64,000 nucleotides of DNA from Thermodesulfobacteriota bacterium. GTDB lineage: Bacteria > Desulfobacterota_D > UBA1144 > Nemesobacterales > Nemesobacteraceae. The notes below the pieces were generated by a model. It saw only the letters and a program-made list of their open reading frames with translations. It did not search any database and had not been told where the DNA came from. Positions 1 through 55,560 of the stretch are shown here, piece by piece (position 1 is the first letter of the stretch; the number at the start of each line of letters is the position of its first letter). The DNA is taken from positions 489,164 through 553,163 of the forward strand of contig OZ244920.1 of the NCBI GenBank assembly GCA_965221875.1. Reading direction: 5' to 3'. Made by a program: the position numbers and the translations under genes.

Positions 1-144
1 TTCACAGTAAACTACCGCTAGGCTTGGGACAACTTCTTCCGTTTTCCCATCTTAGTTTTTCAAAGTGTTTTCTTGCTTTCTCTTCTGTATTGAAGAGTTC
101 CATAAAGCTGATTCTTTCTCTTTTTGACTTTGCTAATTGACCCA

Positions 145-19122: not shown

Positions 19123-20331
19123 GGGAATTATATACATAATTACCCAAACAGGATGATGAAATCATGAGAAAGTTTTTGATTCTGGCTTTGCTGGTGGTCT
19201 TTTCAGCTGGTTACGCTGAGGGAAAAGAAGAAGGATATACCTCGATGGTAACAGGAACGATTTATAAAGGGGCGAAGATGGCAAAGGATGGGGTTGTGGT
19301 AGCAACAGGTTACTTGCTGAAAGCGGGGAAATATGGGTTGGAGAAAGGGAAAGATGGTTTCTGGTATTTGACTGGAACCAGCAAGTATTATTTGGCTCCA
19401 GTTCTCTCCGCAACAACAGAGTATGCGGGTGCCGTAGTGAATCTCCCCACGATGTTACCCGTCTTGTCTCAGACGCAATGGCTTAACTATCTTGAAAGTT
19501 TGACAAGTTCTACAGCAACCCGCTTCGACAAGGCGTTAGATGCTAAATATCTAGAAACTGCCATGGGCGGGGGCAATCACCGGCTATTTGACGGAGGACA
19601 CACCCTTGGGGGCGCTTGGAAAAATGTTTCCGAGATGTGCGCCGCAACAGGGTGTTCATCCAGGGAACAAGTAAGTGGGTACTTCGGATCTCTCTGGAAA
19701 GATGCTACCACACCGAAAGGTCTCCCCTTTATGACTATGGAAAAGCAGACGTATGATGCTCTTGCCAATCGCTTAAGTGACTATGGAATCAGCAAGCAAT
19801 GGACATACGATGCCTTGTCCTATGACGCACTGGAAGTTGTGGGAGCGGGAATTTCAGCAGCGGTGGTGGTGTATTATTTGGATGCCGGGCAAACAGAAGA
19901 ACTGTCGGAAGCCTTGGGGGCGATTGGAATTGCAAGTATAGCTTCCGCTAATCCTCTTATGGCACTAGTGGCAATTTCATCGGTTGCGTATGCCATTGCG
20001 ACTGGAACTGATTTGAAAGGAACTGCGGTCGCATCGGGAGTGGTAAAAACCGCCATAGTCTCCGGAGCGTTGGTTCTTGTCCCAGGGCCGTTTGTAATGG
20101 GTTTGACGGGGGGTGTAGCACTTTCCATCATGTTCGACAAGAGTGTGAATTACAAGAATTATGAAATTGCCAAGGATTACGTGTTATATAGTGCTTCGAC
20201 TCTAAAGGCTTGGGTCCCGACATGATAGAAGCAATAATCGAGTTTTTAATTGCAGTGATAGGCGGACATTTGAATGACCCCTACCGAAAGAAAACCAAAA
20301 AGAGCTATGGGTAGTCATGTATATAATTCCC
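19123..20331 (+). mobile_element. 1209-bp non-autonomous TIR cargo element: 23-bp terminal inverted repeats, 8-bp target-site duplication GATGAACC
   Basis: Left TIR GGGAATTATATACATAATTACCC (19123-19145), right TIR GGGTAGTCATGTATATAATTCCC (20309-20331); identical GATGAACC at 19115-19122 and 20332-20339; no transposase inside. Confidence 0.75.
19164..20225 (+). CDS. cargo ORF: secreted protein with N-terminal signal peptide and C-terminal Gly/Ala-rich hydrophobic (glycine-zipper-like) region
   Basis: 353 aa; MRKFLILALLVVFSAGYAEG signal; C-terminal ~120 aa of AxxxG/GxxxA repeats; no homolog recognised. Confidence 0.55.
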   Translation: MRKFLILALLVVFSAGYAEGKEEGYTSMVTGTIYKGAKMAKDGVVVATGYLLKAGKYGLEKGKDGFWYLTGTSKYYLAPVLSATTEYAGAVVNLPTMLPVLSQTQWLNYLESLTSSTATRFDKALDAKYLETAMGGGNHRLFDGGHTLGGAWKNVSEMCAATGCSSREQVSGYFGSLWKDATTPKGLPFMTMEKQTYDALANRLSDYGISKQWTYDALSYDALEVVGAGISAAVVVYYLDAGQTEELSEALGAIGIASIASANPLMALVAISSVAYAIATGTDLKGTAVASGVVKTAIVSGALVLVPGPFVMGLTGGVALSIMFDKSVNYKNYEIAKDYVLYSASTLKAWVPT

Positions 20332-21722: not shown

Positions 21723-21798
21723 ATTGGCGTTTTACGACGGAGGATGCGAGAATCAAGCTTAAATCGCTGTATCAATCAATACAAAACTGATACTATAC
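21722..21798 (+). mobile_element. right-end fragment (last ~70 bp plus TIR) of an IS630-family element, abutting the next copy head-to-tail through a shared TA
   Basis: 21722-21790 ~85% identical to 24763-24831 (transposase 3' end); CTGATACTATAC-TA-GTATAGCATCAG palindromic junction at 21787-21812. Confidence 0.5.
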
Positions 21799-24841: not shown

Positions 24842-26033
24842 GCGTAGTGTCCTAGTTATACCTTTAATTATTCTTCTGCTGTGGTAGAATAACAATACCA
24901 TAGCTTGGAGGAAAATTAATGCGTATTGCGGCGGCAATAGAATTATCGGAAGAAGAGGGGAAAAAGCTAAAGCGTCTTTCATCATCTCGGAGTATATCTG
25001 TGGGACTGCACCACAGAGTTCGCATTGTGCTGATGTCCGCTGAGGGAAAGACAAACAAAGAGATTTCCGCTGAACTCGGACTGTCCCAGCCCACAGTAAG
25101 TTTGTGGCGCAACAGGTTTGCGGAGGAAAGGATAGAAGGCATTGAGAAGGAACGTCCCCGGGGAGGCAATCATGGTGGAAGAGATTCTGAGGAGCAGCAG
25201 AGGTTGCGGACAAAGATAATTGAAGCTACGACACAGACGACTCCTTCGGACGCAACGCACTGGTCGTGTCGCAGCATGGCGAGGGCTATGGGCACTACCC
25301 ACAGTTTTGTAAACAGGGTATGGAGAGCCAATGGGCTGAAGCCCCATTTGATAAAGACGTTCAAGCTGAGTAACGATCCGAAGTTTGAAGAGAAGCTTGT
25401 GGATGTGGTGGGGCTGTATGTGCATCCGCCGGAGAATGCGGTGGTGTTCAGCTTTGATGAGAAGAGCTCAATACAGGCGCTTGACAGGACTCAGCCGGGG
25501 CTGCCGCTGAAAAAGGGTCGAAGTGGTACAATGACGCATGACTACAAGCGTCATGGAACGACATCTTTGTTTGCGGCTCTGAACATAGCGTCGGGGGAAG
25601 TGATAGGGAAATCCTACCGCAAGCATCGTCATCAGGAGGTGTTGAAGTTTTTCAAGGAAGTGGAGAAGTCGGTAGACAAGGGTTTGGAGATACATGTCAT
25701 TCTGGACAATTACAGCACGCACAGGCACAAAGATGTGCTTGAATGGATAGAGAGCAAGAAGCGGATATATCTGCACTTCATACCGACAAGTTCTTCGTGG
25801 TTGAATTTGGTGGAGCGTTTTTTTTCAACTCTTACGGAAAAGCAGATACGTCGGGGTGTGTTCACTTCAGTTGCGCATTTGGAAAAAAGCATAAAGAACT
25901 ATTTGGATACGTACAATGAGAATCCTCGTCCGCTGGTATGGACGAAGTCTGTTAAGGAGATAACACAGAAAGTAGGAAGAGGTCGGAGAGCACTTGCGGA
26001 ACAAAACTAAAGATGTAATTAGGACACTACACT
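24842..26033 (+). mobile_element. IS630-family element (copy B), 1.19 kb, ~21-bp TIRs, flanked by TA, directly abutting copy A
   Basis: Left TIR GCGTAGTGTCCTAGTTATACC (24842-) vs right-end reverse complement GTGTAGTGTCCTAATTACATC (..26033); TA at 24840-24841 and 26034-26035. Confidence 0.7.
24919..26010 (+). CDS. IS630-family transposase (HTH + DDE_3)
   Basis: 363 aa; N-terminal HTH (KTNKEISAELGLSQPTVSLW), FDEKSSIQALDR, DNYSTHRH, SSWLNLVERFF motifs. Confidence 0.85.
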   Translation: MRIAAAIELSEEEGKKLKRLSSSRSISVGLHHRVRIVLMSAEGKTNKEISAELGLSQPTVSLWRNRFAEERIEGIEKERPRGGNHGGRDSEEQQRLRTKIIEATTQTTPSDATHWSCRSMARAMGTTHSFVNRVWRANGLKPHLIKTFKLSNDPKFEEKLVDVVGLYVHPPENAVVFSFDEKSSIQALDRTQPGLPLKKGRSGTMTHDYKRHGTTSLFAALNIASGEVIGKSYRKHRHQEVLKFFKEVEKSVDKGLEIHVILDNYSTHRHKDVLEWIESKKRIYLHFIPTSSSWLNLVERFFSTLTEKQIRRGVFTSVAHLEKSIKNYLDTYNENPRPLVWTKSVKEITQKVGRGRRALAEQN

Positions 26034-26426
26034 AGTGTACTGCCTCATAATTGTAGAGACGCCATGAGCGTCGGGCAAATTGATGCCGGGTCCTGTCGAC
26101 TCCAACGAGAAGTTGAGGTTTCGCTTGTTTCCCAGACGGGTATTGTATTCTGCGAAAGACCCGACGGAGCGGGCTCTCGTTAGAGTCAACATTTGAGATA
26201 TTAACACAGTTGTTTCCCAATGGGAAGAATTATGTTATAGTAGGAAGCAAGGAGAAGGTTATGGACTATGAGTTCTGGGTAATGATAGCTGGCTTTGTAG
26301 CTGTTTTAGGCTTCTTGTGGAGGTTCTCACAAGATGTTAGTGGCCAGATAGCTGACTTGAGAGAAAGAATGGCAAAGCTTGAGGGTGTAGTCGAAGGTTT
26401 TATGAAAGGTAACCAATAAACGATGA

Positions 26427-27338
26427 CTAAGCAGATTCCAGATGGGAACAAGGTTGCTTTTGAGGCATTACTAGAACAGATGCTTCTGGGTGAAGCAACT
26501 CAAGAAGAAGAGAGAACATCCGATGAGGAATCTTTCGAGTGTTGTAGCGAAAGTCAAACTCAGCAAGATACTTAGGCATATGTTTCTCTGATATGTGTAT
26601 ATGAGTTCCAAGCACACTTCTCTTGAATAAAGACCAGTAACCTTCAATGCTGTTCGTATGACAGGTTCCAACCACCCATTGCTTTATTCCATGCAGAACA
26701 GTCTTATGTTCATAATCTGAACCCAGGTGCTTATAAGCCCACCACTCATCGGTATTTATCTTTGAACCCTTCATAACGTTCTTTCTGATTACAGGCTCTA
26801 TGGTGCTTCGCTTCGCATCAGGCACTACTTGGGTCTTAACAGATCCATTTCTCTGTGTTATGCCAAGCACCACGGTCTTTCCTTCCGCTCCCCTTCCACG
26901 CTTGCCCGGCTTCTTGCCTCCCATATAGGTCTCGTCTATTTCGATCTCGCCGAATAGCTGGCTTGTATCAAGCTTCGCCATATGAAGGCGTAATTGATGA
27001 GCTATCCGCCACGCGCATTTATAGGTAACTCCAAGCTGTCTCTCAAGCTCCTTAGCGGATACTCCGTGTCTTGTGGAAGTAAAGAGATAAATGGCATAGA
27101 ACCACTTATGAAGCGGAGTAGTAGACTTCTCAAAAAGTGTTCCCTTGCAGGGATAGACGTGATAACCACAGAACTGACAGGCATGCGCCCTGCGCTTCGT
27201 TATGCGATGATACTTTGTCTTCCTGTTGCACTTTTTGCAGACAGGATAACGCTTGGAATAAAACTCCATGATCTTTGCGAGACAAGCATTGTCATTCGGG
27301 AACTCCTGCTGAAATTGATAGAACGAGTATTTTTTCAT
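26427..27338 (-). CDS. IS1595-family (ISXO2-like) transposase
   Basis: 303 aa; N-terminal Zn-ribbon CKKCNRK..CQFCGY, DDE_Tnp_IS1595 core, C-terminal HTNSIEGYWSLFKRSVLGTHIHISEKHMPKYLAEFDFRYN. Confidence 0.8.
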   Translation of the reverse strand: MKKYSFYQFQQEFPNDNACLAKIMEFYSKRYPVCKKCNRKTKYHRITKRRAHACQFCGYHVYPCKGTLFEKSTTPLHKWFYAIYLFTSTRHGVSAKELERQLGVTYKCAWRIAHQLRLHMAKLDTSQLFGEIEIDETYMGGKKPGKRGRGAEGKTVVLGITQRNGSVKTQVVPDAKRSTIEPVIRKNVMKGSKINTDEWWAYKHLGSDYEHKTVLHGIKQWVVGTCHTNSIEGYWSLFKRSVLGTHIHISEKHMPKYLAEFDFRYNTRKIPHRMFSLLLELLHPEASVLVMPQKQPCSHLESA

Positions 27339-27934: not shown

Positions 27935-28002
27935 ACCTACCATCGAGAAAATCAATCAGTTAATCAATTTCTCGTAAGTAAGCCTTTTCCCCGCAAGTCC
28001 CG

Positions 28003-28240
28003 AGATGGTAAAGTTTATCTGGTCTATAGTGTGCATAGGACGGACATTTGTACGGTTGGCAAATTCGTTAATGTACTTCTTACCGACATACTGTGATAAA
28101 CGCCATAATAACCGCGCTTCAATAAAGCCCAGAGTGACTCAACGCCGTTGGTATGGGCTTCCCTTTAACGTACTCCCCGCTCTTATGATTAACCTTACAG
28201 TGTTCATATCCCAAGTGGGCGAGTATATGCAGTTTTGAAG
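28003..28240 (-). pseudogene. C-terminal remnant of a second IS1595-family transposase gene
   Basis: Minus-strand translation ..HTNGVESLWALLKRGYYGVYHSMSVRS.. matches the IS1595 transposase C-terminal motif. Confidence 0.5.
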
Positions 28241-28566
28241 GTTTGAAACCAAACACCGAATACGAGTTTAGAGATTCGATTCAAGAACGAGCACGGAAAG
28301 AGCGAACCAGTTTTAATCAAGTTTTGCACTGGAAGTCAAGGCACTGCGGGTATCTGACTTCCCGTTACACTTAATCTGAAAGAAACTACCATGTCAGAGA
28401 TTGCATATTACGATTTATTCGGACCATCTTTTCAGTTGAATTCGGACGGTCATTACGAACGAATTCGGACGGCTGAATCTCTTTTTTCTTTTCCCTCAAA
28501 ACAGACTCTAACACGTTCAGAATTTCTCTGTCAAACGACGATTAAAAAGTCTGTTTTTTTTCTCTC

Positions 28567-29355
28567 CTAACAATCACCTTTATTCTCTTCTTTTTCCTTT
28601 GCCGATGTCTGTTTTTCTTCCTTCTCCGCAACGATCTTTCTCATAGATTCCCCGCCGAGTTCAAGACGATGAGAGTTGTGAACGATTCTGTCAAGGATCG
28701 CGTCGGCAACCGTGTTGTCCCCTATCATTCCGTGCCACTCACTCACCGGAAGCTGACTTATCACCACAGTAGAACTCTCCCCGTAACGGTCATCCATTAT
28801 CTCCATCAGATCATATCTCTGGGCCGTGGTCACAGCCTCAAGACCCCAATCGTCTATGATAAAGAGCCCCACTCTGGCAAGCTTTGAGAGAAGCTTGTTG
28901 TAGCTTCCGTCCGCCTTTGCCTGAGAGAGAGCAAAAAACAGTCTTGAGATCCTGTAGTAACGAACCGATACCCCTCTGAGACACGCGTTATGACCCAGGG
29001 CGCACGCTATCCATGTCTTGCCGCTCCCGCAAGGACCCGTTATGAGAAGATTGCGGCCCCGCTCTATCCAGTCCCCCTGGGCAAGCCCTGCGATCTGAGC
29101 CTTTCTCAGGTTACGGGAATGGCCGTAGTCAATATCTGCCAGGTCGGCTTTTAACCTGAAGCGAGCGTTGCTTACGAGACGCTGCTGTTTTCTGCTCTCC
29201 CTCTCAACGCATTCTCTCTCCACAAGCAGTCCGACCCTCTCCGTAAAACCCAGTTCATCGTAAGTGCGGGACTGCTCGCACTGACGCTCAAGCGCCTCGG
29301 CCATGGCTCCAAGCCGAAGTCCCCGAAGACGTGACAATGTCTGTTGCAAACTCAT
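28567..29355 (-). CDS. istB: IS21-family helper ATPase IstB
   Basis: 262 aa; Walker A GPCGSGKT, Walker B LFIIDDWG, IstB family architecture. Confidence 0.85.
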   Translation of the reverse strand: MSLQQTLSRLRGLRLGAMAEALERQCEQSRTYDELGFTERVGLLVERECVERESRKQQRLVSNARFRLKADLADIDYGHSRNLRKAQIAGLAQGDWIERGRNLLITGPCGSGKTWIACALGHNACLRGVSVRYYRISRLFFALSQAKADGSYNKLLSKLARVGLFIIDDWGLEAVTTAQRYDLMEIMDDRYGESSTVVISQLPVSEWHGMIGDNTVADAILDRIVHNSHRLELGGESMRKIVAEKEEKQTSAKEKEENKGDC

Positions 29356-32306: not shown

Positions 32307-32489
32307 CTTGTTACCTCCTTGCCTCAGATTGCAAGCAGGTTAACAAAACGCTTTTTAATGATGTTTTCGGGAAGAAGAAAAAAGGGGGATTCAGCCGTCC
32401 GAATTCGCTCGTAACTACCGTCCGAATTCAGTCGTAATGGGTGTCCGAATTCGCTCGTAATCACCGTCCGAATTCAGTCGTAATATGCA
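32307..32489. repeat. IS21 terminal multimeric direct repeats
   Basis: Four copies of CCGTCCGAATTC(G/A)(C/G)TCGTAAT between 32398 and 32489; inverted copies at the other end 28420-28470. Confidence 0.5.
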
Positions 32490-35889: not shown

Positions 35890-35914
35890 AGGGGCGCCAT
35901 TGCGCCTCTTTTTT
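35890..35914 (+). terminator. rho-independent terminator (hairpin + T6) of the ATPase gene
   Basis: AGGGGCGCCattGCGCCTCT + TTTTTT. Confidence 0.55.
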
Positions 35915-36542
35915 GTGTGCCGAGCATGAACAGCAGCTTGGGGGTGCGAGTCCCCTATACAACCTGATGGCGGTGAAGTATTAGCGAAGCGCAAGGGCCG
36001 TGTCGCGAGGCATGGTCTGAAGGAAGTGCGTAGCAAAGCCGCGACCCGATGGACAAGAACTGAATACGAGGCCTGTGCGGCCGGACGAGCGGGCAAATGA
36101 TCGCGAAGTCCATAGTCATCAAGGGCCGTGGAGGTAAATTCGGCGGGTGTGCGGTGAAGGCTGTTGGTCTTACCTCGGGAGGTCTGCGTCGTGTCCCAAA
36201 TAGAGGACTGAGCGGTTCGCAAGGGCCGTGATCGCGGTGCAGAAGTCAGCAGAGGGCATAGTAGCCACGGAAGTGGCGAAGGCCCGAACGATGGAAGGGA
36301 ATAAGGACGGCGAGCTCATGGGGGCAAAGCGGCAGAATAACCAGCTGGAGCTGGCCTTTGGCAAGAGGAGCGAGGGTGAAGCCCGAAGCGGAGCTTGCGA
36401 AGGGACCGAAGTCTGCGTGGCGCGAGCCGAAACCGAAGCCCGGCGGTTTTCATCAGCTTAAATCCATCGAACCGCCACGTACGGACCCGTACGCGTGGTG
36501 GTGTGGGAGGGGAGGAATCGAGAGATTTCCCCCTATCCCGAT
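35915..36542 (+). repeat. 628-bp repeat copy 1; candidate ORF-less group IIC intron
   Basis: Starts GTGTG directly after the terminator T-run; D5-like hairpin CCGCCACGUACGG..CCGUACGCGUGGUGG (CGC triad, 2-nt bulge); D6-like hairpin with GAGA loop and bulged A at -8; >98% identical to copies 2 and 3. Confidence 0.55.
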
Positions 36543-36592
36543 TGAGGCATTTGCATAGTTGAGGATACCCTTACAGCGCAAACGCCTCTGCA
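36541..36592 (+). repeat. IS4-like IRL/IRR pair separated by ~10 bp (excision scar or minimal MITE) abutting repeat copy 1
   Basis: ATTGAGGCATTTGCATAGTTGAGGATACC resembles IRL 7405-7435; CTTACAGCGCAAACGCC resembles IRR 9316-9335. Confidence 0.4.
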
Positions 36593-36664
36593 GGCAGTCT
36601 TTACAAATTAAACTGAAGTATTTACTATCTAGTTGACGTTACCTCCGCAGTAGGACGGCTTGCC

Positions 36665-36865
36665 ATGTCAACTGTAGAAGAAATAAAATCCGCCATTTCG
36701 GCTCTTTCCAAAGAGGATTATATCCGTCTGCGCGAGTGGTTCTCCGAGAAGAACTGGGAACAGTGGGATAAGGAAATCGAAAGAGACTCGTCATCTGGAA
36801 AGCTGGACTTCTTGATGGAAGAGGCGGTTGCGGAGAAAAATCAAGGACGACTCAGTAAACTTTAG
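36665..36865 (+). CDS. type II antitoxin (putative addiction module component, ParD/Phd-like)
   Basis: 66 aa MSTVEEIKSAISALSKEDYIRLREWF..; immediately precedes the toxin gene with a 0-nt gap. Confidence 0.6.
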   Translation: MSTVEEIKSAISALSKEDYIRLREWFSEKNWEQWDKEIERDSSSGKLDFLMEEAVAEKNQGRLSKL

Positions 36866-39262: not shown

Positions 39263-39299
39263 AGCGGGCACGGCGCACGAGCGTCCTGCCCGCTTTTTT
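39263..39299 (+). terminator. groEL rho-independent terminator
   Basis: AGCGGGCAcggcgcacgagcgtccTGCCCGCT + TTTTTT. Confidence 0.6.
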
Positions 39300-39927
39300 G
39301 TGTGCCGAGCATGAACAGCAGCTTGGGGGTGCGAGTCCCCTATACAACCTGATGGCGGTGAAGTATTAGCGAAGCGCAAGGGCCGTGTCGCGAGGCATGG
39401 TCTGAAGGAAGTGCGTAGCAAAGCCGCGACCCGATGGACAAGAACTGAATACGAGGCCTGTGCGGCCGGACGAGCGGGCAAATGATCGCGAAGTCCATAG
39501 TCATCAAGGGCCGTGGAGGTAAATTCGGCGGGTGTGCGGTGAAGGCTGTTGGTCTTACCTCGGGAGGTCTGCGTCGTGTCCCAAATAGAGGACTGAGCGG
39601 TTCGCAAGGGCCGTGATCGCGGTGCAGAAGTCAGCAGAGGGCATAGTAGCCACGGAAGTGGCGAAGGCCCGAACGATGGAAGGGAATAAGGACGGCGAGC
39701 TCATGTGGGCAAAGCGGCAGAATAACCAGCTGGAGCTGGCCTTTGGCAAGAGGAGCGAGGGTGAAGCCCGAAGCGGAGCTTGCGAAGGGACCGAAGTCTG
39801 CGTGGCGCGAGCCGAAACCGAAGCCCGGCGGTTTTCATCAGCTTAAATCCATCGAACCGCCACGTACGGACCCGTACGCGTGGTGGTGTGGGAGGGGAGG
39901 AATCGAGAGATTTCCCCCTATCCCGAT
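39300..39927 (+). repeat. 628-bp repeat copy 2; candidate ORF-less group IIC intron inserted right after the groEL terminator
   Basis: Same sequence as copy 1; begins GTGTGCCGAGC directly after T6. Confidence 0.55.
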
Positions 39928-39963
39928 TGCTGTTTTAAAATTTTTTTAATTTTCCCTTGACAG

Positions 39964-40043: not shown

Positions 40044-40077
40044 AGAGCGCCTCGGCCCCCCTGAGGCGCTCTTTTTT
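40044..40077 (+). terminator. terminator-like hairpin + T6 immediately preceding repeat copy 3
   Basis: AGAGCGCCTCggccccccTGAGGCGCTCT + TTTTTT. Confidence 0.5.
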
Positions 40078-40706
40078 GTGTGCCGAGCATGAACAGCAGC
40101 TTGGGGGTGCGAGTCCCCTATACAACCTGATGGCGGTGAAGTATTAGCGAAGCGCAAGGGCTGTGTCGCGAGGCATGGTCTGAAGGAAGCGTGAAGCAAA
40201 GCCGCGACCCGATGGACAAGAACTGAATACGAGGCCTGTGCGGCCGGACGAGCGAGCTAATGATCGCGAAGTCCACAGTCATCAAGGGCCGTGGAGGTAA
40301 ATTCGGCGGGTGTGCGGTGAAGGCTGTTGGTCTTACCTCGGGAGGTCTGCGTCGTGTCCCAAATAGAGGACTGAGCGGTTCGCAAGGGCCGTGATCGCGG
40401 TGCAGAAGTCAGCAGAGGGCATAGTAGCCACGGAAGTGGTGAAGGCCCGAACGATGGAAGGGAGTAAGGACGGCGAGCTCATGTGGGCAAAGCGGCAGAA
40501 TAACCAGCTGGAGCTGGCCTTTGGCAAGAGGAGCGAGGGTGAAGCCCGAAGCGGAGCTTGCGAAGGGACCGAAGTCTGCGTGGCGCGAGCCGAAACCGAA
40601 CGCCCGGCGGTTTTCATCAGCTTAAATCCATCGAACCGCCACGTACGGACCCGTACGCGTGGTGGTGTGGGAGGGGAGGAATCGAGAGATTTCCCCCTAT
40701 CCCGAT
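40078..40706 (+). repeat. 629-bp repeat copy 3; candidate ORF-less group IIC intron
   Basis: Same family; one extra nt relative to copies 1 and 2. Confidence 0.55.
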
Positions 40707-40765
40707 TGTCTAATCCTAAAGTTTATGTATATTTCCTGCCCTGATCTGTTACGGAGTCTCATGGA

Positions 40766-48563: not shown

Positions 48564-50024
48564 TTGTTTGAATTCATAAAGTACTTCTGCACCCTGCTTT
48601 ACATTATCTCCTCTGCTTTTCTCTGCATATTCGGCCTTCATCGCTACTACCTGGTACATCTTTACTCGAGGACAAAGGCGCGCCGCGTTGCGGCCCCGCA
48701 GGAACAGGGCCCCCTTCCGCGCGTCACGGTGCAGCTCCCCGTCTATAACGAGATGTACGTGACGGAGAGGCTCATACGCGCGGTCTGCGCGATCGACTAC
48801 CCGAGGGACCTGCTCGAGGTGCAGGTGCTTGACGACTCAACAGACGACACAAGCCGCATAGCGGCGGGCTGCACCGAGGAGCTCCGGGCCGCGGGGTTCG
48901 ATATAAAGCATATCTGGAGGGGGAACCGCGAGGGGTACAAGGCGGGGGCGCTTGCCGCGGGCTGCGCACAGGCAAGCGGAGAGTTCCTTGCGGTTTTCGA
49001 CGCGGACTTCGTTCCCCCCAGGGATTTTCTCCGAAGGACCGTGCCGTGCTTCGAAGATCCAGAGGTCGGAATAGTACAGACCAGGTGGGGGCACCTTAAC
49101 CGCGACTACTCCCTTCTGACCAAGGCCCAGTCGGTGCTTCTTGATGGACATTTTGTGGTGGAACAGGCCGCACGGCACTCAAACGGACTTTTTCTTAACT
49201 TCAACGGCACCGCCGGGGTGATCCGCAAGAAATGCATAGAACAGAGCGGGGGATGGCAGCACGACACCCTGACCGAGGATCTCGATCTGAGCTACAGGGC
49301 GCAGATAAACGGGTGGCGCGCGGTCTACCTGCCCGACGTCATATCGGACGCCGAGCTTCCCGTTGACATGAACGCCTTTAAGATACAGCAGCACAGATGG
49401 GTTAAGGGGGGGATCCAGACGGCGGGGAAGCTTCTGCCCTCGGTACTTGGTGACTCCCAGGTTCCGTTTAAGGTCAAGGCAGAGAGCATTTTCCACCTCC
49501 TCGGCAATTTCAGCTACCTGTTTCTGCTCGCCACGATAATTCTCATAATACCCATGAATTTCCTCTGGGAGCGGATCTGGCTTAACGACTTTTTCATAGC
49601 GAGCGTCACAGGGGTGGCGCTTGGCACTTTCGCCATAATAAGGTTCTACATACTGGCCGTAAGCGAGGCCCATGGCTCCCGGGCCCGGGAGTTCTACAAG
49701 TACATACCCGTTGCGCTAAGCGTCGGGGCGGGCATAGCGGTTAACAACGCCAAGGCCGTGCTTGAGGCGGTTCTGGGCAGGACGTCTGGTTTTGCGAGAA
49801 CGCCCAAGTACGCCGTCGTGGGCAGGAAGGACCGGTGGAGAACCTCGGCGTACGTTTCCTCAAAAGGGGTTACCACCTTTTTAGAGGTCATCCTCTCGGT
49901 TTTCTTCACGTTCCAGGTGGCGTACGTCCTCTACATGGGATTTTTCATCTGGGTTCCCTTCCTGCTGCTTATGCAGTTCGGTTTCACGTACACCGCTTTT
50001 CTCTCGATATATCACGGTTCCTGA
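48564..50024 (+). CDS. family 2 glycosyltransferase, processive membrane-embedded type (cellulose-synthase-like)
   Basis: N-terminal TM; DDS..DAD..TED..QHRWVKGG (QxxRW) motifs; C-terminal TM helices. Confidence 0.75.
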   Translation: MFEFIKYFCTLLYIISSAFLCIFGLHRYYLVHLYSRTKARRVAAPQEQGPLPRVTVQLPVYNEMYVTERLIRAVCAIDYPRDLLEVQVLDDSTDDTSRIAAGCTEELRAAGFDIKHIWRGNREGYKAGALAAGCAQASGEFLAVFDADFVPPRDFLRRTVPCFEDPEVGIVQTRWGHLNRDYSLLTKAQSVLLDGHFVVEQAARHSNGLFLNFNGTAGVIRKKCIEQSGGWQHDTLTEDLDLSYRAQINGWRAVYLPDVISDAELPVDMNAFKIQQHRWVKGGIQTAGKLLPSVLGDSQVPFKVKAESIFHLLGNFSYLFLLATIILIIPMNFLWERIWLNDFFIASVTGVALGTFAIIRFYILAVSEAHGSRAREFYKYIPVALSVGAGIAVNNAKAVLEAVLGRTSGFARTPKYAVVGRKDRWRTSAYVSSKGVTTFLEVILSVFFTFQVAYVLYMGFFIWVPFLLLMQFGFTYTAFLSIYHGS

Positions 50025-50187
50025 GAGGCTTTCGCCTCGCTTCGGGATAATAATTTTTTTAACTTTTCACAGTTTCCGAATTTCCGATGGGTTTCTTACG
50101 TTAAAAAAGCATGTATATACTCTTGACATATCCCGGCAGCCGGCTATTATGTATATATCTTAAGTATATCCTTATTTGGAGGCAGAG

Positions 50188-50418
50188 ATGGAAAGGGTGA
50201 AAGTCTTTAAGAACAATAAAAGCCAGGCGGTACGGCTTCCCAAGCCGGTTTCTTTGCCGGATACCGTAAAGGAAGTGGATATTATCCGTCTTGGACGTTC
50301 CCGCTTGATCACTCCGGCTGGAGAGGCATGGGACAGCTGGTTTGAGGGGGACGGTGTTACGGATGATTTCATGAATGAGCGTGATCAGACCGGGAGTCAG
50401 GAGAGGGAACCGTTCTGA
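50188..50418 (+). CDS. vapB: VapB antitoxin (AbrB/MazE-fold)
   Basis: MERVKVFKNNKSQAVRLPKPVSLPDTVKEVDIIRLG.. typical VapB. Confidence 0.7.
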   Translation: MERVKVFKNNKSQAVRLPKPVSLPDTVKEVDIIRLGRSRLITPAGEAWDSWFEGDGVTDDFMNERDQTGSQEREPF

Positions 50419-50819
50419 TGCTGAGGTACATGCTGGACACCAATATAGTTATCTACACTATAAAGAATAAGCCTGAGAAAATAAAAAGGGAGTTTGTCGC
50501 TCATTACGGGCAGGTATGCATATCAACCATCACCTTGATGGAGCTTGTTTATGGAGCCGAAAAGTCTGCAAACCCCAGACGCAATCTGGATGATATAGAG
50601 GGGTTTGTTGCCAGATTGGACGTGCTGTCCTATGATTACGCCGCGGCGCTTCATTCCGGTGAAATCAGGGCGGAGTTAGCCGGATCGGGCACGCCGATCG
50701 GGCATTATGACCTGATGATTGCCGGGCACGCCAGATCGCTCGGGCACATTCTGGTGACCAATAACACCCGGGAATTCAAGCGCGTGGCCGGTTTGCGCCT
50801 GGATGACTGGAGCAAATAG
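50418..50819 (+). CDS. vapC: VapC PIN-domain ribonuclease toxin
   Basis: MLRYMLDTNIVIY.. PIN domain with conserved acidic residues; start overlaps vapB stop. Confidence 0.8.
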   Translation: MLRYMLDTNIVIYTIKNKPEKIKREFVAHYGQVCISTITLMELVYGAEKSANPRRNLDDIEGFVARLDVLSYDYAAALHSGEIRAELAGSGTPIGHYDLMIAGHARSLGHILVTNNTREFKRVAGLRLDDWSK

Positions 50820-50967
50820 GCTTCTTTGTCTTCGTGGAGAGTCAGAGATCAGGCCAGCAGGCCGAAATTTCGAGGAATCGACGAATCTCTAAGGCGACAC
50901 TAATCCGACAAATCGGTTTTTCTTGTCTTGCCGGACTTCGATACGGTGGCAAGGTAATTAATTGATT

Positions 50968-52178
50968 GGGACTTATATACATAACTAGACGTATACTGTT
51001 CCTGGCCGAACGGGCCCTACTTCAGCCCGCTTCATCTCCATCCTTCCGGCCATGCGGGACTCTAAACCAAGCTTCCCACCCGCAATCGAGATGCCTCGAT
51101 GAAGGATATTTATTGCTGCGTTTACATCCCTGTCCATAACTACTCCACACTCACATCTGTGCGTCCTGACGGACAGAGACTTCTTTACCGTAGCTCCGCA
51201 ACCTGAACACTCCTGAGATGTCCCCCGGGGATCAACCTCCACCACCCTGACGCCAGCACTCTCAGCCTTCTCGTTAAGCAGTGTTATCAACTTACCCCAG
51301 TTCTGCTCATGTATGCTCCTCGCAAGTTTACTGTTGCGAACCATGTTCTTTGTCCTAAGCTTCTCCACCACAATGAAGTCGTACATCTTTACTATCTCCG
51401 CACTCAGGCGGTGAAGATAATCTCTTTCCTTGTCACTTATCCTCTGCCACTCCCTGGCAAGCAGTAAAACTGCTTTTTTCCAGTTGTTGCTTCCCTTCTT
51501 CTTGCGGGACACAGAACGCTGAAGCCGTATTATTTTACTCCTGTCTATCACTCTCTTCTCTACCGTCTCCCCGTCACTAAGCGTAAGACGCTTCGTTATC
51601 CCCATGTCTATGCCCACTGGATTGGTTATCTGTTCTGCGGCAGGAACATCATCTATTTCATACGACAGGGCCACTTCAGTGCGCAGTGCCTTCCTCGTAA
51701 TGCGTATAGCTCTCAGAAGTCCGTTCGGTGGAAGTTCACGGGATGTCTTTACTTCAATACGGGGAAGTCCCTTTATCCTGAGAACAGTCTTGTTCCCCTC
51801 TCTCTTTAACATGCTCCCGCACTGATCGTTTACCTCTATGCTTCTCCACCTGCGAGAGCTTTTAAAGCGGGGGAAGCCTCCATGGGTAAAAAACCTCTTG
51901 TACGCCTTGTCAAGCCTTGAGAGAACACCTCTAAACAGAATGGCGGATATATCTTTGAATTCCTGAATCTCAGCCCTGACCTCGGTTAGTTCCTTGCACT
52001 GATCAAAGTAGCTTCGGCTTTTGCCTGTTTTTTTGTAGCAGTCAATACGGGACTCAAGACCGGCGTTATAGAGTTCAGCGGACAGTCTCAGCACCTGATC
52101 AAGCCTGCTGTGCCCAGCTCTGGATATCTTGGTACGACACTTATAAGTCCTTATCATGGCTATGTCATTATACCCAGC
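50968..52178 (-). mobile_element. ~1.21-kb tnpB-carrying unit bounded by sequences related to the TIR-cassette family (boundaries tentative)
   Basis: GGGACTTATATACATAACTAG at 50968-50988 directly abuts the tnpB stop; degenerate related sequence TATGTCATTATACCC at 52161-52175 abuts the start. Confidence 0.4.
50985..52157 (-). CDS. tnpB: TnpB (OrfB_IS605 / IS1341-type RNA-guided nuclease-like transposon protein)
   Basis: 390 aa; RuvC-like motifs (GIDMGI, E, D) and C-terminal Zn-ribbon CSGCGATVKK..HRCECGVVMDRDVNAAINI. Confidence 0.85.
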   Translation of the reverse strand: MIRTYKCRTKISRAGHSRLDQVLRLSAELYNAGLESRIDCYKKTGKSRSYFDQCKELTEVRAEIQEFKDISAILFRGVLSRLDKAYKRFFTHGGFPRFKSSRRWRSIEVNDQCGSMLKREGNKTVLRIKGLPRIEVKTSRELPPNGLLRAIRITRKALRTEVALSYEIDDVPAAEQITNPVGIDMGITKRLTLSDGETVEKRVIDRSKIIRLQRSVSRKKKGSNNWKKAVLLLAREWQRISDKERDYLHRLSAEIVKMYDFIVVEKLRTKNMVRNSKLARSIHEQNWGKLITLLNEKAESAGVRVVEVDPRGTSQECSGCGATVKKSLSVRTHRCECGVVMDRDVNAAINILHRGISIAGGKLGLESRMAGRMEMKRAEVGPVRPGTVYV

Positions 52179-52339
52179 ACCCTTCTATATGACTACTCAA
52201 CCCTGGCACTGTCAACTTTCCTACATAGTTCCCATAATTTGCAAGGATAACGGAACTTCATATTTCTTATCAAGCGGCAAGAGAAGTTCTGTACGCCATG
52301 CCGCCATGCATTTTACTCTTTCAAGGTGAGCCAGCTGGC

Positions 52340-53578
52340 TTACGACCGGTTCCAGACCGTTCCGAAAGGAACGGCCCACAGCCCGTCACCCATGGAACCC
52401 GCGAGTTCTCCCGAATAGAGTACGATCCCGGTGAATTTTCTGTCGCGCGCGATGTTTTTCTTAAACCAGCTGAGGCTCCTGAAATCGCTCGTTCCGATGG
52501 CCGAGCCCGCCTTGATCTCAATCCCGAGTAGCGCCGAGTCCTCCCTTTCGATCAGGAAGTCAATCTCGCGCTTTTCGCGGTCACGGTAATGAAACAGGCT
52601 GTATTTTCCGGCATTGGCGTCCGCCTGGGCGGCTATTTCGTTGAACATGAAGGTTTCAATCAGTTTGCCCGAGCGGTCCGCGTCCATGCGAACCTGCTGC
52701 CTGTCCCAGTCGAGAATCGAAGACATAAGTCCCGAATCGGTCATAAACAGCTTGGGGCGGCTCCCCACCCGCGCGTAGTCCGTGCGTTTCCACGGCCTTA
52801 TGCGCTCGACCACATACAGGGTTTCCAAGGCGTTTATATATGTCTCGACCGTGGAGCGGACGATGGAAAGTCCGGCGGCTATGGATGAGATGTCCATGAA
52901 TTTGCCCGACCATGCTGCCAGGGCATATATCAGTTCGCTCATGGCATCGCGTCGCTGGATACGCCCGAGATCCCTCAGGTCGCGCTCAAGAATCGCGTCC
53001 ACATAGTCCCGATGCCATAGTCTTCGTTCTGCGTCTCCAAGCAGAATAGCTTCCGGGAAGCCGCCCCCAAAAGAGATGTTCAGCATGGCGTCACGACCGT
53101 AAGCGCGGTCGGGATGCCCGAAGTCCTGTCCGAAAGCCCGGTCAAGGAAATCTGGAACCACCCCCAAAATCTCTCCCTGCGTGAGCGGACGCAGCCGTAC
53201 CTTTCTTATACGTCCGGCGAGAGATTCCCGCACCCCTGGAGAAGACTGTATGTCGGCCGAACCTGTCAGCAGGTATTGTCCGGGCCTTGTATCTTCATCT
53301 ACATTTATCTTGATCGCGGAAAGCAGATCGGGGGCACGCTGGACTTCGTCGATGATGAGGGTTTTTCCCGAGTGCCTAACGAAACCTCGGGGGTCGGTTT
53401 CGGCAATCTGCCGTACGGCCGGATCATCTAAAGTGCGGTAGGCGACATCATGTGAAACCAGTTCCTTGGCAAGAGTAGTCTTGCCGCATTGCCGCGCTCC
53501 GCAGAGCAACAGCACGCGGCGCGCTTCGAGAGCTTTTTCCAAAGTGTTCCGCTGCCAGCGGACATAAGAACGTGACAT
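52340..53578 (-). CDS. AAA+ ATPase (AAA_14 + DUF4143), paralog of 34652-35884
   Basis: GARQCGKTTL Walker A; ~45% identity to the other copy. Confidence 0.75.
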   Translation of the reverse strand: MSRSYVRWQRNTLEKALEARRVLLLCGARQCGKTTLAKELVSHDVAYRTLDDPAVRQIAETDPRGFVRHSGKTLIIDEVQRAPDLLSAIKINVDEDTRPGQYLLTGSADIQSSPGVRESLAGRIRKVRLRPLTQGEILGVVPDFLDRAFGQDFGHPDRAYGRDAMLNISFGGGFPEAILLGDAERRLWHRDYVDAILERDLRDLGRIQRRDAMSELIYALAAWSGKFMDISSIAAGLSIVRSTVETYINALETLYVVERIRPWKRTDYARVGSRPKLFMTDSGLMSSILDWDRQQVRMDADRSGKLIETFMFNEIAAQADANAGKYSLFHYRDREKREIDFLIEREDSALLGIEIKAGSAIGTSDFRSLSWFKKNIARDRKFTGIVLYSGELAGSMGDGLWAVPFGTVWNRS

Positions 53579-53610
53579 GATCCTAAACTCGCTGTATTGT
53601 TATTTCCGTA

Positions 53611-53679
53611 TCCGCGTTTTTGCAAAAATCGCATCCGCGTTTTTATAGAAATTATACCCGCGTTTTTATAGAAAACAAT
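53611..53679. promoter_or_regulatory. three 23-bp direct repeats (iteron-like) upstream of the minus-strand DUF4143 ATPase gene
   Basis: atccgcgtttttgcaaaaatcgc / atccgcgtttttatagaaattat / acccgcgtttttatagaaaacaa. Confidence 0.4.
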
Positions 53680-53849
53680 GTTCCCAAGTCGTATTATCCG
53701 GATCCGTCGTCTTTTTCCTGCTGCGCCCTGCTGCTCTCGATAGACTTTCTGATTTCAGACATTCCCTGTTCCCGGTAGGCCTCGTCCGATTTAGCGTTTT
53801 CAAGGCGCTCCCGCACCCCTCTGGTCGAGCGCCGCAGATCTTCCCCGCC

Positions 53850-55560
53850 CTAGCGTATCTCGCCCCGTCCCGCCCCGAAGTCTTCCGCGGTCTTCGTCTC
53901 TTCGGTTCCGATTCTCTCCTGGGACCGCTCCCGCGCCTGGGCTACCCGTTCCCTGACCTCGGTGGAGCCCTCGTTTATCGAGCCCTGAGTTTGCTCGATT
54001 CCCGCCCCGCCCGCCCCCGCGGCGGACTTTCTGTATTCCCCGAAGGACTGTTCCGCGTCGACCTCGAATCTGCGGACGTTGCCGAGGCCGTAGCCGTCGG
54101 CGGGTATCGCGGCGACCGATTCTCTGGTTTTCCTTCCCCCGCCGACAAGTTCCGAGAGGCCCGTGACCCTGTGTATCGATCCGGAGACGGCTTCCGCTTC
54201 CTCGGTATCGTATCTTCCGTCGCGAAGGTCGGTAAGCCCCCTGGCCACGTAGCTGTCCGAATAGCCTTGCCCCCTCATGTCGGCAAACACCGTCTGGGTG
54301 TACTCCCTCTCAAGACCCGCGCCGAAGGAACTCTCCCCCGAGAGCACTTCTGAGTAGGCTTTTGCCCTCTCCCTCTGGGAGGAGTAGTCCCGCGGTCGCC
54401 CCCGTAGTCTTGTCCACCTCGATGGGCCCGTATCCCTCGGCGGAACTCTCGCCGTCCGCGGTCGTCGCAAGGCAGCGCTCCATGTCGGCGAGCATGGCCA
54501 TGCGCGAGGCCACTTCGAGAAAATCCGTGTTCTGCTCCGTCTGCGTATCGAAGCAGTCATCCCCCGAGGCGCAGCGGATTTCCCCGTCGCACTCATACGT
54601 GACGCTTTTTTCCCGGCAGAGGCTTACGCTTTTCTGGCAGTCGTAGGCGTTTTCCTGGATAAGGCATACCCCGAGGTTCCTCCCCGGCGGGTCAGGAAAC
54701 TCGGGATGCTCGCGGAACCGCATGACGCAGCGCGCCCCGGTCTGGTGGCAGCCATCGGCGCGCAGCTGAGGGCAGTCGGGGTCTTCCACCAGGGGGCTCG
54801 CGCAGAGGTAGGTGTATTCCCTGTCTGTGCAGACGGTTTCTCCATCCGGGGTCTCGGTGCTCTGAAGGCAGCGGTTGCTGAAGGTTTCGCAGTTTCCGGC
54901 CGCTTTGTAGCCCCCGCAGCCGTCTTCGGTTTCGATGTGGATTTCGTATGTGGTTTCGGTGTCCGTGGGCGAGGCTCTCCGCCGGGATTCGATACCAAGG
55001 GGGACCACGGTAACGGTAACGGTCTTTTTCACGTTGCAGTAATGTCTGCTGAGCGTCGCCTGTTCGTGGCACTTCTTTGGTTCGTTCCAGAAGTTCTCCG
55101 CGTACTCGGTGCACACCTCCTGTTTCTCGCATGAGGACAAGGGGGCCTCGATCGCATCCTTGGAGCTTGCGATCATGGGGTCCGTTTCAGGGTCTACGGT
55201 GAACGCGGGGCGCTGCGCGGAGCTTTGCCTGAGGAATCCGGGAGCATCCGAGGTGGCCGGGTTCCCGCCCTGTATGGCGCCCTCCGCCTCCGTTTTCATT
55301 CCCCCGGGATTCCCGGTCCACCGCGCCCCCTCGCTTCTGAGTTCCTCGAGGGTCTCTGTACCGTAGCCCGGAAGCGTTTCTGTTTCAACTGCTGACGGCA
55401 TCAGGGCTTGCGAGTGGCGAGACAGCATTTCAGTCCCGTGGAGATGTCCTTCCCGGAGGCCCGCCTCGAAATCCTCCCCGGCGCCGGGCGCCGGCACAAG
55501 CAGGAGACTAATTGTCACTAAAGCCGCTTTTTTCAAGGCGCCTTCTAAACACCCCGGCAT
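53850..55560 (-). pseudogene. traN: F-type T4SS mating-pair stabilisation protein TraN-like, Cys-rich, apparently frameshifted near 54310-54400
   Basis: 416-aa ORF with signal peptide and >20 Cys in C-x-C-rich arrangement, positioned after trbC as in the F tra operon; continues in another frame (53850-54596). Confidence 0.55.

What the first reader, a model, noticed from the sequence alone, without database searches (positions are those of the whole stretch)
50968..52178. TnpB gene bounded by the same terminal-repeat family as the cargo element: a TIR/8-bp-TSD element carrying TnpB rather than an IS200/IS605 architecture?
GGGACTTATATACATAACTAG (19/23 match to the cargo-element TIR) lies directly against the tnpB stop codon. 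A degenerate related sequence lies directly against the start, giving a ~1.21-kb unit of almost the same size as the 1209-bp cargo element. A solo copy of the repeat (17285-17307) truncates another ORF. Canonical TnpB elements (IS200/IS605, IS607) lack TIRs and TSDs. A TIR family that alternately carries TnpB or an unrelated cargo would be unusual. IS1595-family transposases, which make 8-bp TSDs, are present nearby (26427-27338), with a remnant at 28003-28240.
Basis: partly seen in the sequence, partly recalled or inferred. Interest (0 to 1): 0.7.

Follow-up and report, generated by a model that had tools for sequence, protein, structure and literature searches.

The report
TnpB riding an IS1595-type transposon
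The tnpB gene here is not in the usual IS200/IS605 setting. It sits inside a 1.27-kb element bounded by the inverted repeats of an IS1595-type cut-and-paste transposon, an arrangement rare in bacteria that resembles how eukaryotic Fanzor nucleases travel.

Summary
The repeat is real. GGGAMTTATATACATRAYTA occurs four times in the window against 0 expected, and one copy overlaps the tnpB stop codon.

The true left end is at 52209-52233, about 50 bp upstream of the ATG, so the unit is 50968-52233 (1266 bp).

The same termini occur in 79 genome loci and 35 viral contigs. There they bound four kinds of element:
- IS1595-family insertion sequences
- 170-800-bp miniature elements (MITEs)
- cargo elements
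- TnpB-only elements of 1245-1255 bp, several with perfect 8-bp target-site duplications (TSDs)

So this is a non-autonomous IS1595-type element carrying TnpB, not an IS200/IS605 element.

The window copy is a chimera. It is 95-100% identical to a "type-3" element (L182, perfect TSD) until the last ~30 nt, where it switches to the "type-1" end. It has no TSD.

Two further findings:
- A covarying RNA structure (98% of cells paired, 11 compensated pairs) spans the tnpB 3' end. Its last helix uses bases of the inverted repeat.
- The base just 5' of the TSD on the left side is G in 21 of 23 TnpB elements, against 17 of 76 control ends. This looks like a target-adjacent motif (TAM).

DDE-associated TnpBs are already described. 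IS1595 is not among the partners named in the texts I could read.

The parts
50968..50992 (-). Right-end terminal inverted repeat of the tnpB element ('type 1', ...GTCTAGTTATGTATATAAGTCCC on the tnpB strand). It contains the tnpB stop codon.
   Evidence: It is 98% identical over the last ~50 alignment columns to the type-1 right end of L065.
50985..52157 (-). tnpB, 390 aa, the only gene of the element. The RuvC motifs (GIDMG around D184, VVEKL around E265, DRDVN at 342-346) and the CxxC...CxxC zinc finger are present.
   Evidence: (ISDra2 TnpB 8bf8, E = 4e-38).
50968..51107 (-). Omega-RNA-like structured region: six helices, one of them pseudoknotted. It overlaps the C-terminal coding tail and runs to the element end. 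The last helix pairs right-end-specific bases with bases of the inverted repeat.
   Evidence: Alignment A2 with the structure count: 98.4% of cells paired, against 30-49% when partners are slid. 11 pairs changed on both sides; 0 of 500 shuffles reach the observed values. Single-sequence fold z = -2.3. No Rfam family matches.
50948..50967 (-). Flank immediately 3' of the right end (AATCAATTAATTACCTTGCC on the tnpB strand). This is the inferred guide-encoding segment of the RNA.
   Evidence: Inference from TnpB biology. This segment differs at every insertion compared. Not tested.
52167..52195 (-). Promoter-like site TAGTCA-17-TATAAT inside the element, just upstream of the tnpB ATG. The GGTATAAT box is conserved in most relatives compared.
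52209..52233 (-). Left-end terminal inverted repeat ('type 3', GGGAACTATGTAGGAAAGTTGACAG).
   Evidence: It is the best hit in the whole window to the type-2 left end (19/25, the only site at 18 or more). It matches the L182-derived type-3 pattern with 0 mismatches, 0 expected. It lies at the position expected from relatives.
52242..52244 (-). TTG at positions -11 to -9 from the left end, where the 8-bp duplication would begin. This is a candidate target-adjacent motif (W-K-G).
   Evidence: G at -9 in 21/23 independent TnpB elements against 17/76 control ends of the same repeat family, Fisher p = 3e-9. L220 adds one more.
19123..20331 (.). 1209-bp sister element with type-1 inverted repeats and 8-bp duplications (19115-19122 and 20332-20339, GATGAACC). 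It carries a 353-aa protein of unknown family and interrupts a MazF-like gene.
   Evidence: No Pfam, NCBIfam, PADLOC or PHROG hit for the cargo protein.
17284..17304 (+). Solo type-1 repeat. The ORF 17089-17304 ends inside it.
27962..28214 (-). C-terminal remnant of an IS1595-family transposase of the group found inside these repeats elsewhere.
   Evidence: tblastn with the L026 transposase gives 63-73% identity in its two best pieces over residues 225-312. No repeat lies next to it.

Best explanation
Window 50968-52233 is a non-autonomous transposable element of the IS1595 kind. It has 20-25-bp terminal inverted repeats starting with GGGAAYTAT.

Contents of the element:
- an internal promoter
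- tnpB
- a guide-RNA (omega-RNA) scaffold that overlaps the 3' end of tnpB and finishes in the right inverted repeat

Shown by comparison with relatives:
- Intact elements of this kind are 1245-1255 bp long and flanked by 8-bp target duplications.
- Elements with the same termini elsewhere carry an IS1595-family DDE transposase, nothing at all (MITEs), or other cargo.

Inferred:
- TnpB elements are moved in trans by such a transposase.
- The RNA is transcribed through the right repeat into the flank, so the guide is the 8-bp duplication plus downstream DNA.
- An unoccupied copy of the site then reads W-K-G followed by the guide match, and would be cut by TnpB.
- In the occupied site the same sequence is preceded by ...GTCCC and is spared.
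- This would favour retention or copying of the element, extending the IS605 'cut the empty site' logic to a transposon that makes target duplications.

The window copy is a recombinant. It has a type-3 left end and body joined to a type-1 right terminus, and it has no duplication. It may no longer be a good transposase substrate, although tnpB is intact.
For: The repeat:
- Four copies in the window, 0 expected.
- 79 loci in metagenome-assembled genomes of many phyla and 35 viral contigs.
- Internal sequence diverges immediately inside about 24 nt.

Target duplications:
- About 30 non-TnpB elements have perfect 8-bp duplications.

Transposase:
- Full IS1595 transposases lie inside the repeats of L026, L054 and L070.
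- A 1174-bp element with a partial IS1595 transposase match lies in L216.

TnpB-only elements:
- Both repeats plus perfect duplications in L071, L085, L080, L081, L083, L182 and L220. L028 and L160 match 7/8. L029, a more distant TnpB, also matches 7/8.
- The layout is the same for TnpBs only 27-41% identical to the window protein: L057, L073, L077, L185, L218.

Window copy:
- Left end identified.
- Chimera: 95-100% identical to L182 until the last ~50 alignment columns. There identity is 98% to the type-1 end of L065 and 61% to L182.

RNA structure:
- Six helices, 98.4% of cells paired, 11 compensated pairs.
- In L082 and L084 the repeat changed at both ends (..ATGTATTTT.. to ..ATCCTTTTT..), and the partner strand of helix 6 changed with it.

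TAM-like signal:
- G at -9 in 21/23 elements against 17/76 controls.
- No mirror-image C after the right-hand duplication: 1/19, counted by hand from the flanks printed.

Other:
- Nuclease motifs intact.
- At least six paralogues on the same 2.09-Mb contig.
Against: - The window copy has no target duplication and has ends of two different flavours (15/25 between them).
- No cognate transposase gene is in the window. The intact IS1595 transposase at 26427-27338 is only 34% identical, and there is no repeat beside it.
- No element with both an IS1595 transposase and tnpB inside one repeat pair was seen.
- Type-2 and type-3 repeats were seen only around tnpB, so which transposase acts on them is unknown. 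In the genome of L026/L220 the IS has type-1 ends and the TnpB element has type-2 ends.
- About half of the TnpB elements lack a duplication.
- Several sit at the same chromosomal site in many samples. This fits old, immobile copies as well as active ones.
- The RNA, its 3' end, the TAM and any cleavage are inferred from sequence only.
- A DDE cut-and-paste element already leaves a break at the donor site, so the selective benefit of TnpB is less obvious than for IS605 (argument in PMC13565253).
Confidence: 0.85

Rival explanations
1. This is an ordinary IS200/IS605 (IS1341-type, TnpB-only) element. The GGGACTTATATAC motif is simply its conserved right end, moved by a Y1 TnpA on single-stranded DNA without duplications.
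For: - tnpB with an RNA structure at its 3' end is what IS605 elements have.
- The repeat can be drawn as a small hairpin in the cargo copies (GGGAATTAT-ATAC-ATAATTaCCC; read).
- The window copy shows no duplication.
Against: - Relatives have the motif inverted at both ends with perfect 8-bp duplications.
- The same ends bound IS1595 DDE transposases and MITEs.
- The hairpin is lost in the tnpB copy and the solo copy.
- NCBIfam scores the protein below the IS200/IS605 TnpB cutoff (214 against 425) while it passes the general TnpB model.
- No Y1 transposase was seen in any of these elements.
Confidence: 0.03
2. The juxtaposition is accidental. An IS605-type tnpB unit happened to land in, or next to, an IS1595-derived MITE or solo repeat, so the shared repeat says nothing about how tnpB moves.
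For: - Nesting is common here. IS630-like elements sit inside the repeat in L047 and L050, and an IS interrupts tnpB in L028.
- The window copy's right terminus was indeed acquired by recombination.
Against: - More than 20 independent insertions share one layout: repeat, leader of about 50-75 nt, tnpB, stop codon within or next to the right repeat. Length stays constant at 1245-1266 bp.
- The RNA helix pairs with repeat bases and co-varies with them.
- TnpBs as distant as 27% identity keep the same layout.
Confidence: 0.04
3. The copy in the window, and perhaps many relatives, is an immobilised TnpB kept for a host or other non-transposon role. The repeats are relics.
For: - Mismatched ends and no duplication in the window copy.
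- Several relatives occupy one fixed site across many samples while keeping intact reading frames.
- Altae-Tran et al. 2023 (PMC10691335) report that most TnpB clusters are immobile.
Against: - Catalytic motifs are intact.
- The RNA scaffold is maintained by compensatory changes.
- Several very similar paralogues lie in one genome.
- A >90%-identical copy elsewhere has perfect repeats and a perfect duplication (L182).
- The LE-side G signal points to nuclease targeting tied to insertion sites.
Confidence: 0.12

Closest known systems
DDE-transposase-associated TnpB branches (DDE-1 to DDE-6) of Altae-Tran et al. 2023, PNAS (PMC10691335)
   Same: tnpB lies inside symmetrical inverted terminal repeats rather than IS605/IS607 ends, with the tnpB 3' end within 250 bp of the element end. 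Solo TnpBs are surrounded by ends nearly identical to those of transposase-carrying relatives, implying movement in trans.
   Different: - The only DDE family named in that main text is IS630. A 2026 review (PMC13565253) lists ISL2, IS630 and IS1031. IS1595 appears in neither, and no paper in the library links TnpB with IS1595. The supplement of the PNAS paper could not be read, so prior listing cannot be excluded.
- No element seen here holds the transposase and tnpB together.
IS1595 family insertion sequences, including members with passenger genes (from my own knowledge: ISfinder; Siguier et al. 2009)
   Same: Inverted repeats, 8-bp target duplications, a transposase of about 300 aa with an N-terminal zinc ribbon, and derivatives with passenger genes and MITEs.
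   Different: The window element has no transposase. Its passenger is an RNA-guided nuclease whose RNA uses the right inverted repeat as part of its fold.
IS200/IS605 and IS607 TnpB-omega-RNA systems (ISDra2 and others)
   Same: A TnpB of the same fold family (ISDra2 TnpB, E = 4e-38). An RNA scaffold overlaps the tnpB 3' end and stops at the element boundary, with a pseudoknot-type helix. The guide is presumably read from the flank.
   Different: No Y1 or serine transposase. Inverted repeats and 8-bp duplications instead of asymmetric ends inserted next to a fixed tetra- or pentanucleotide. The putative TAM is separated from the left end by the duplication.
Eukaryotic Fanzor1 and Fanzor2* in cut-and-paste DNA transposons (Yoon et al. 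2023, PMC10711439)
   Same: A TnpB-family nuclease carried by a transposon with inverted repeats and target duplications. [quoted passage not shown]
   Different: Bacterial hosts. The 8-bp duplication varies in sequence, so it cannot be a fixed scaffold part as proposed for Fanzor. Here it is more likely the first 8 nt of the guide.

Membership tests
IS1595-family element (non-autonomous derivative) | Terminal inverted repeats shared with elements that encode an IS1595-family DDE transposase | tested here: met
   The type-1 repeat at 50968-50992 is the repeat that bounds the L026, L054 and L070 elements. Their transposases pass Pfam PF12762 and PF12760 and NCBIfam NF033547. The left end is a sister flavour seen so far only around tnpB.
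IS1595-family element (non-autonomous derivative) | 8-bp target-site duplication | tested here: not met
   The window tnpB copy matches 2/8, which its chimeric origin explains. The feature is met in the window cargo element and in relatives L071, L085, L080, L081, L083, L182 and L220.
IS1595-family element (non-autonomous derivative) | Own IS1595 transposase gene | tested here: not met
   tnpB is the only gene between the ends. The element would have to be moved in trans.
IS1595-family element (non-autonomous derivative) | Actual mobilisation by an IS1595 transposase | not testable with these tools
   Needs a transposition assay.
IS200/IS605 family (IS1341-type TnpB-only element) | No inverted repeats and no target duplication; asymmetric ends with subterminal hairpins; insertion 3' of a fixed 4-5-nt site | tested here: not met
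   Inverted repeats at both ends and variable 8-bp duplications in relatives.
IS200/IS605 family (IS1341-type TnpB-only element) | TnpB of the IS200/IS605 type | tested here: inconclusive
   NCBIfam IS200_TnpB scores 214 bits, below its 425-bit cutoff. The general guided_TnpB model passes at 257 against 100.
TnpB-omega-RNA (OMEGA) system | RuvC-type TnpB with an intact catalytic triad and zinc finger | tested here: met
   Pfam and NCBIfam hits, alignment to ISDra2-type TnpB, and the motifs GIDMG, VVEKL and DRDVN plus CxxC...CxxC.
TnpB-omega-RNA (OMEGA) system | Conserved structured RNA overlapping the tnpB 3' end and reaching the element boundary | tested here: met
   Covariation count on 17 sequences. 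No Rfam family matches.
TnpB-omega-RNA (OMEGA) system | TAM next to the guide-matching target; RNA-guided cleavage | tested here: inconclusive
   A W-K-G signal lies just 5' of the duplication on the left side. Cleavage is not testable here.
DDE-associated TnpB (Altae-Tran et al. 2023) | tnpB within inverted terminal repeats that also bound a DDE transposase; tnpB 3' end within 250 bp of the end | tested here: met
   The stop codon lies 17 nt from the end. Ends are shared with IS1595 elements. Whether this clade is one of their six branches could not be tested.

The most novel reading that the evidence does not exclude
This would be a bacterial counterpart of the Fanzor arrangement: a whole clade of TnpB-omega-RNA modules adapted to a duplication-making DDE transposon (IS1595 type). 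The right inverted repeat doubles as the last helix of the guide RNA. The guide begins with the 8-bp target duplication. The TAM (W-K-G) lies just outside the duplication on the left side, so only the empty site is cut. These non-autonomous nuclease elements are spread across many phyla of sponge-associated and other bacteria, and onto viral contigs.
Probability: 0.4. Interest if true: 0.75.

Novelty: new variant of a known kind. Interest (0 to 1): 0.6.

Why it matters
TnpB is the ancestor of Cas12. Its role is understood only for IS605/IS607 elements, which excise without a scar and make no target duplication.

This case offers a natural bacterial family in which TnpB and its RNA have been fitted to a cut-and-paste DDE transposon. 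It includes many complete copies, three repeat flavours, and a sequence signature for the TAM. Two questions become directly testable:
- How an RNA-guided nuclease copes with a variable target duplication.
- What the nuclease gains for a transposon that already leaves a double-strand break.

It also gives a prokaryotic model for the Fanzor situation in eukaryotes, and a set of compact (about 390 aa) nucleases with defined RNA ends.

Tried and rejected
- **Rfam** on 49000-54000 at E up to 1: no family.
- **Direct comparison of the window element's two ends:** only 15/25, not distinguishable from background (21 sites at 15 or more in the window). The left end could be recognised only through relatives.
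rejected. It aligns with the conserved leader and promoter region of relatives.
- **Reading the repeat as an IS605-type hairpin end:** considered because the cargo copies can fold (GGGAATTAT/ATAATTaCCC). Rejected because of the duplications and because the tnpB and solo copies lose the stem.
- **Exact-protein look-ups of P0001 and P0002**, to get the other copies in the same genome: not on record.
- **Viral-contig scan for type-2/type-3 repeats:** nothing found.
- **The intact IS1595 transposase at 26427-27338 as mobiliser:** unlikely. It is 34% identical and has no matching ends.
- **A 9-10-nt similarity (GCAAGG-TAA) between the two flanks of the window copy:** judged chance.
- **Cargo protein 19164-20225 and the small ORFs near the solo repeat:** no convincing hit in Pfam, NCBIfam, PADLOC or PHROGs.
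- **RNAalifold on the raw alignment:** it missed two helices because of gap placement. They were added by hand and then tested by pair counting.
Full report
**1. What is at the coordinates**

- The minus-strand ORF 50985-52157 encodes a 390-aa TnpB. It hits Pfam OrfB_IS605 and Cas12f1-like_TNB and NCBIfam guided_TnpB at 257 bits against a cutoff of 100.
- Its best solved relative is ISDra2 TnpB, E = 4e-38.
- The RuvC motifs and the zinc finger are present.
- The sequence GGGACTTATATACATAACTAG at 50968-50988 overlaps the stop codon.
- With up to three mismatches the motif occurs four times in the window, against none in 100 shuffles: 17284 (+), 19123 (+), 20311-20331 (-) and 50968 (+).
- The pair 19123/20331 bounds a 1209-bp element flanked by GATGAACC on both sides. 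Removing the element and one repeat restores a MazF/PemK-like frame. The repeat family therefore makes true 8-bp target duplications.

**2. The second end of the tnpB unit**

In relatives it is the conserved leader GGGTATAAT...ATG, and it scores as a promoter-like TAGTCA-17-TATAAT.
- The real terminus is at 52209/10-52233 (GGGAACTATGTAGGAAAGTTGACAG on the tnpB strand).
- It is the single best site in the 64-kb window for the left end of relative L080 (19/25).
- It matches with 0 mismatches a degenerate 24-nt pattern written from the two termini of L182, whose TnpB is more than 90% identical to the window's. None is expected by chance.
- The element is 50968-52233, 1266 bp.

**3. The repeat family elsewhere**

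An exact scan of one genome per species found the 20-mer in 79 loci. Hosts include Alpha- and Gammaproteobacteria, Oligoflexia, Thermodesulfobacteriota/Dadabacteria, Chloroflexi, Acidobacteria, Spirochaetia, Omnitrophota, Latescibacterota and even an archaeon. Judging by their isolate names, several of these genomes appear to come from sponge metagenomes. A viral-contig scan found 35 more. Sequence similarity stops about 24 nt inside the terminus.

Paired, inverted copies bound four kinds of element:
- **Full IS1595-family elements.** The transposases of L026 and L054 were scored: both pass Pfam DDE_Tnp_IS1595 and Zn_ribbon_IS1595, and L026 passes NCBIfam transpos_IS1595 at 184 bits against 75. 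L070 encodes a 77%-identical transposase by tblastn. There is also a 1174-bp IS in L216.
- **MITEs of 170-815 bp**.
- **Cargo elements**, such as DUF1643 and a methylase-HNH gene.
- **TnpB-only elements**.

About 30 of the non-TnpB elements have perfect 8-bp duplications.

**4. TnpB-only elements**

- Relatives at 70-76% protein identity, and one above 90%, come in three repeat flavours that share GGGAAYTAT...:
  - type 1: GGGAMTTATATACATAACTASACAG
  - type 2: GGGAATTATGTATTTTAGTTGACGG
  - type 3: GGGAAYTATGYAGGARAGTTGACA
- Elements with both ends are 1245-1255 bp long.
- Their duplications are perfect in L071, L085, L080, L081, L083, L182 and L220. L028 and L160 match 7/8, and L019 matches 8/8 with a 1-nt offset.
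- TnpBs only 27-41% identical to the window protein have the same layout inside the same ends: L057, L073, L077, L029, L185, L218.
- No Y1 or serine transposase was seen in any of them. None holds an IS1595 transposase together with tnpB.

This rules out an ordinary IS200/IS605 element and a one-off nesting event.

**5. The window copy is a chimera**

- Aligned with L182 it is 95-100% identical over about 1260 columns.
- In the last ~50 columns identity to L182 drops to 61% and identity to the type-1 right end of L065 rises to 98%.
- The switch lies in the conserved ...GGCCAGGAACAGT segment.
- Recombination between two elements of different flavours would also join flanks from two different insertions. 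That explains the absent duplication (2/8).
- At least six paralogues of this TnpB lie on the same 2.09-Mb contig, so partners for recombination exist.

**6. RNA structure**

- I aligned the last ~150 nt of 17 elements and defined six helices, one of which forms a pseudoknot.
- They are paired in 98.4% of cells, against 30-49% when partners are slid by 1-3 columns.
- There are 11 pairs with changes on both sides, and 0 of 500 shuffles reach the observed values.
- Helix 6 pairs bases just inside the right repeat with bases of the repeat itself. It is maintained through GTATA/TATAT, GTGTAT/ATACAT and GTCCTT/AAGGAT variants.
- In L082 and L084 the repeat changed at both element ends, and the RNA partner changed too.
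- The C-terminal ~30 residues of the ORF, which lie beyond the region alignable to ISDra2 TnpB, are encoded by this RNA region.
- The scaffold ends at the element boundary, as in IS200/IS605 systems. The sequence beyond it differs at every insertion, as expected for a guide.
- Use of inverted-repeat bases in the scaffold was previously predicted for Fanzor1 and Fanzor2* (PMC10711439).

**7. A TAM-like signal**

- On the tnpB-upstream side, the base at -9 from the left end, immediately 5' of the duplication, is G in 21 of 23 independent TnpB insertions.
- In other ends of the same repeat family it is G in 17 of 76 (Fisher p = 3e-9).
- Position -10 is T or G in 21/23, and -11 is A or T in 18/23. 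L220 adds another TTG.
- There is no mirror-image C after the right-hand duplication: 1/19, counted by hand from the flanks.
- Transposase-carrying elements do not show the signal: 2/6, counted by hand.
- The window copy has TTG at 52244-52242.

My reading, which is inference: the guide is the duplication plus downstream flank, and the TAM is W-K-G just upstream of it in the empty site. The occupied site is protected because ...GTCCC precedes the same sequence.

**8. Caveats**

- About half of the TnpB elements lack a duplication, far more than the MITEs.
- Several sit at one fixed site across many samples: L160-167, L168-173 and L174-181. Many copies are therefore old residents.
- The transposase that recognises type-2 and type-3 ends is unknown.
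- The window's intact IS1595 transposase (26427-27338) is a distant relative at 34% and has no such ends. A remnant at 27962-28214 is closer.

**9. Comparison with the literature**

- IS200/IS605 and IS607 have neither inverted repeats nor duplications (PMC13565253).
- Altae-Tran et al. 2023 describe six DDE-associated TnpB branches with inverted terminal repeats. They also describe solo TnpBs with the same ends as transposase-bearing elements, and name IS630 (PMC10691335).
- The 2026 review lists ISL2, IS630 and IS1031.
- I found no text linking TnpB to IS1595. Their supplement was not available.

The kind is therefore known. The IS1595 partnership, the TnpB-only non-autonomous form with a variable 8-bp duplication, the repeat-embedded RNA helix and the TAM signature appear to be new details.

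**10. Verdict**

This is a moderately to highly interesting new variant of a known, rare kind.

Noticed in passing
window 24838-26036: IS630-like element: a 363-aa DDE_3/HTH transposase ORF (24919-26010) between 32-nt inverted ends. The same kind of end (ACTAGTGTAGTGTCCTAATTATAC...) directly follows the CTAG of the type-1 repeat in L050. In L047 an IS630-like transposase gene (Pfam DDE_3) sits between the left repeat's CTAG and tnpB.
   Followed up: partly
window 27962-28214 (-) and 23-133 (-): Fragments of IS1595-family transposase genes. The 27962-28214 remnant is 63-73% identical in its two best pieces to the transposases found inside GGGAMTTATATAC-bounded elements, closer than the intact copy at 26427-27338 (34%). 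No repeat is left beside it.
   Followed up: partly
window 17284-18750: Behind the solo repeat lie small ORFs with no family hit, including two paralogous coiled-coil proteins (17566-17769 and 18296-18544). A further degenerate repeat copy sits at about 18090-18112 (+). The right boundary of this element was not found.
   Followed up: partly
window 28417-28493 and 32374-32484: 77-nt inverted ends containing 23-bp tandem repeats (GTCCGAATTC...) around an ORF with an IstB-like ATPase motif (28567-29355). This looks like an IS21-type element.
   Followed up: no
window 35905-36544, 39290-39929, 40068-40708: Three copies (97-100% identical) of a segment of at least 300-640 bp. Other duplicated segments lie at 21569-21806 with 36616-36763 and with 24751-24847. 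The window is dense in repeated mobile DNA and toxin-antitoxin genes (VapC at 50418-50819; an interrupted MazF at about 19012-20560).
   Followed up: no
L001-L079 (genome scan) and L185-L219 (viral contigs): The 20-nt terminus is identical across bacterial phyla, one archaeal genome (Methanophagales, L032) and 35 viral contigs, while everything inside differs. One genome (Oligoflexia RHO2_bin_34) holds more than ten copies of a 170-bp MITE.
   Followed up: partly
L065, L068, L168, L174, L185, L218, L073 versus the MITEs: TnpB-bearing elements lack a target duplication much more often (about half) than MITEs and ISs of the same repeat family (about one in five). The cause could be age, recombination between 1.25-kb copies, or something TnpB does.
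   Followed up: partly
L160-L167, L168-L173, L174-L181: Three TnpB insertions are each found at one fixed chromosomal site in many independent samples: def/unknown gene, alaS/unknown gene, and SSF transporter/uvrC. The SSF/uvrC site holds two diverged orthologous proteins (P0102, P0104), so it predates strain divergence.
   Followed up: partly
window 9978-13354 and 3074-4725: Long tandem and dispersed coding repeats: 27-nt Gly/Asp-rich RTX-like units, a 2.1-kb duplication at 99% identity, and 330-nt tandem units.
   Followed up: no
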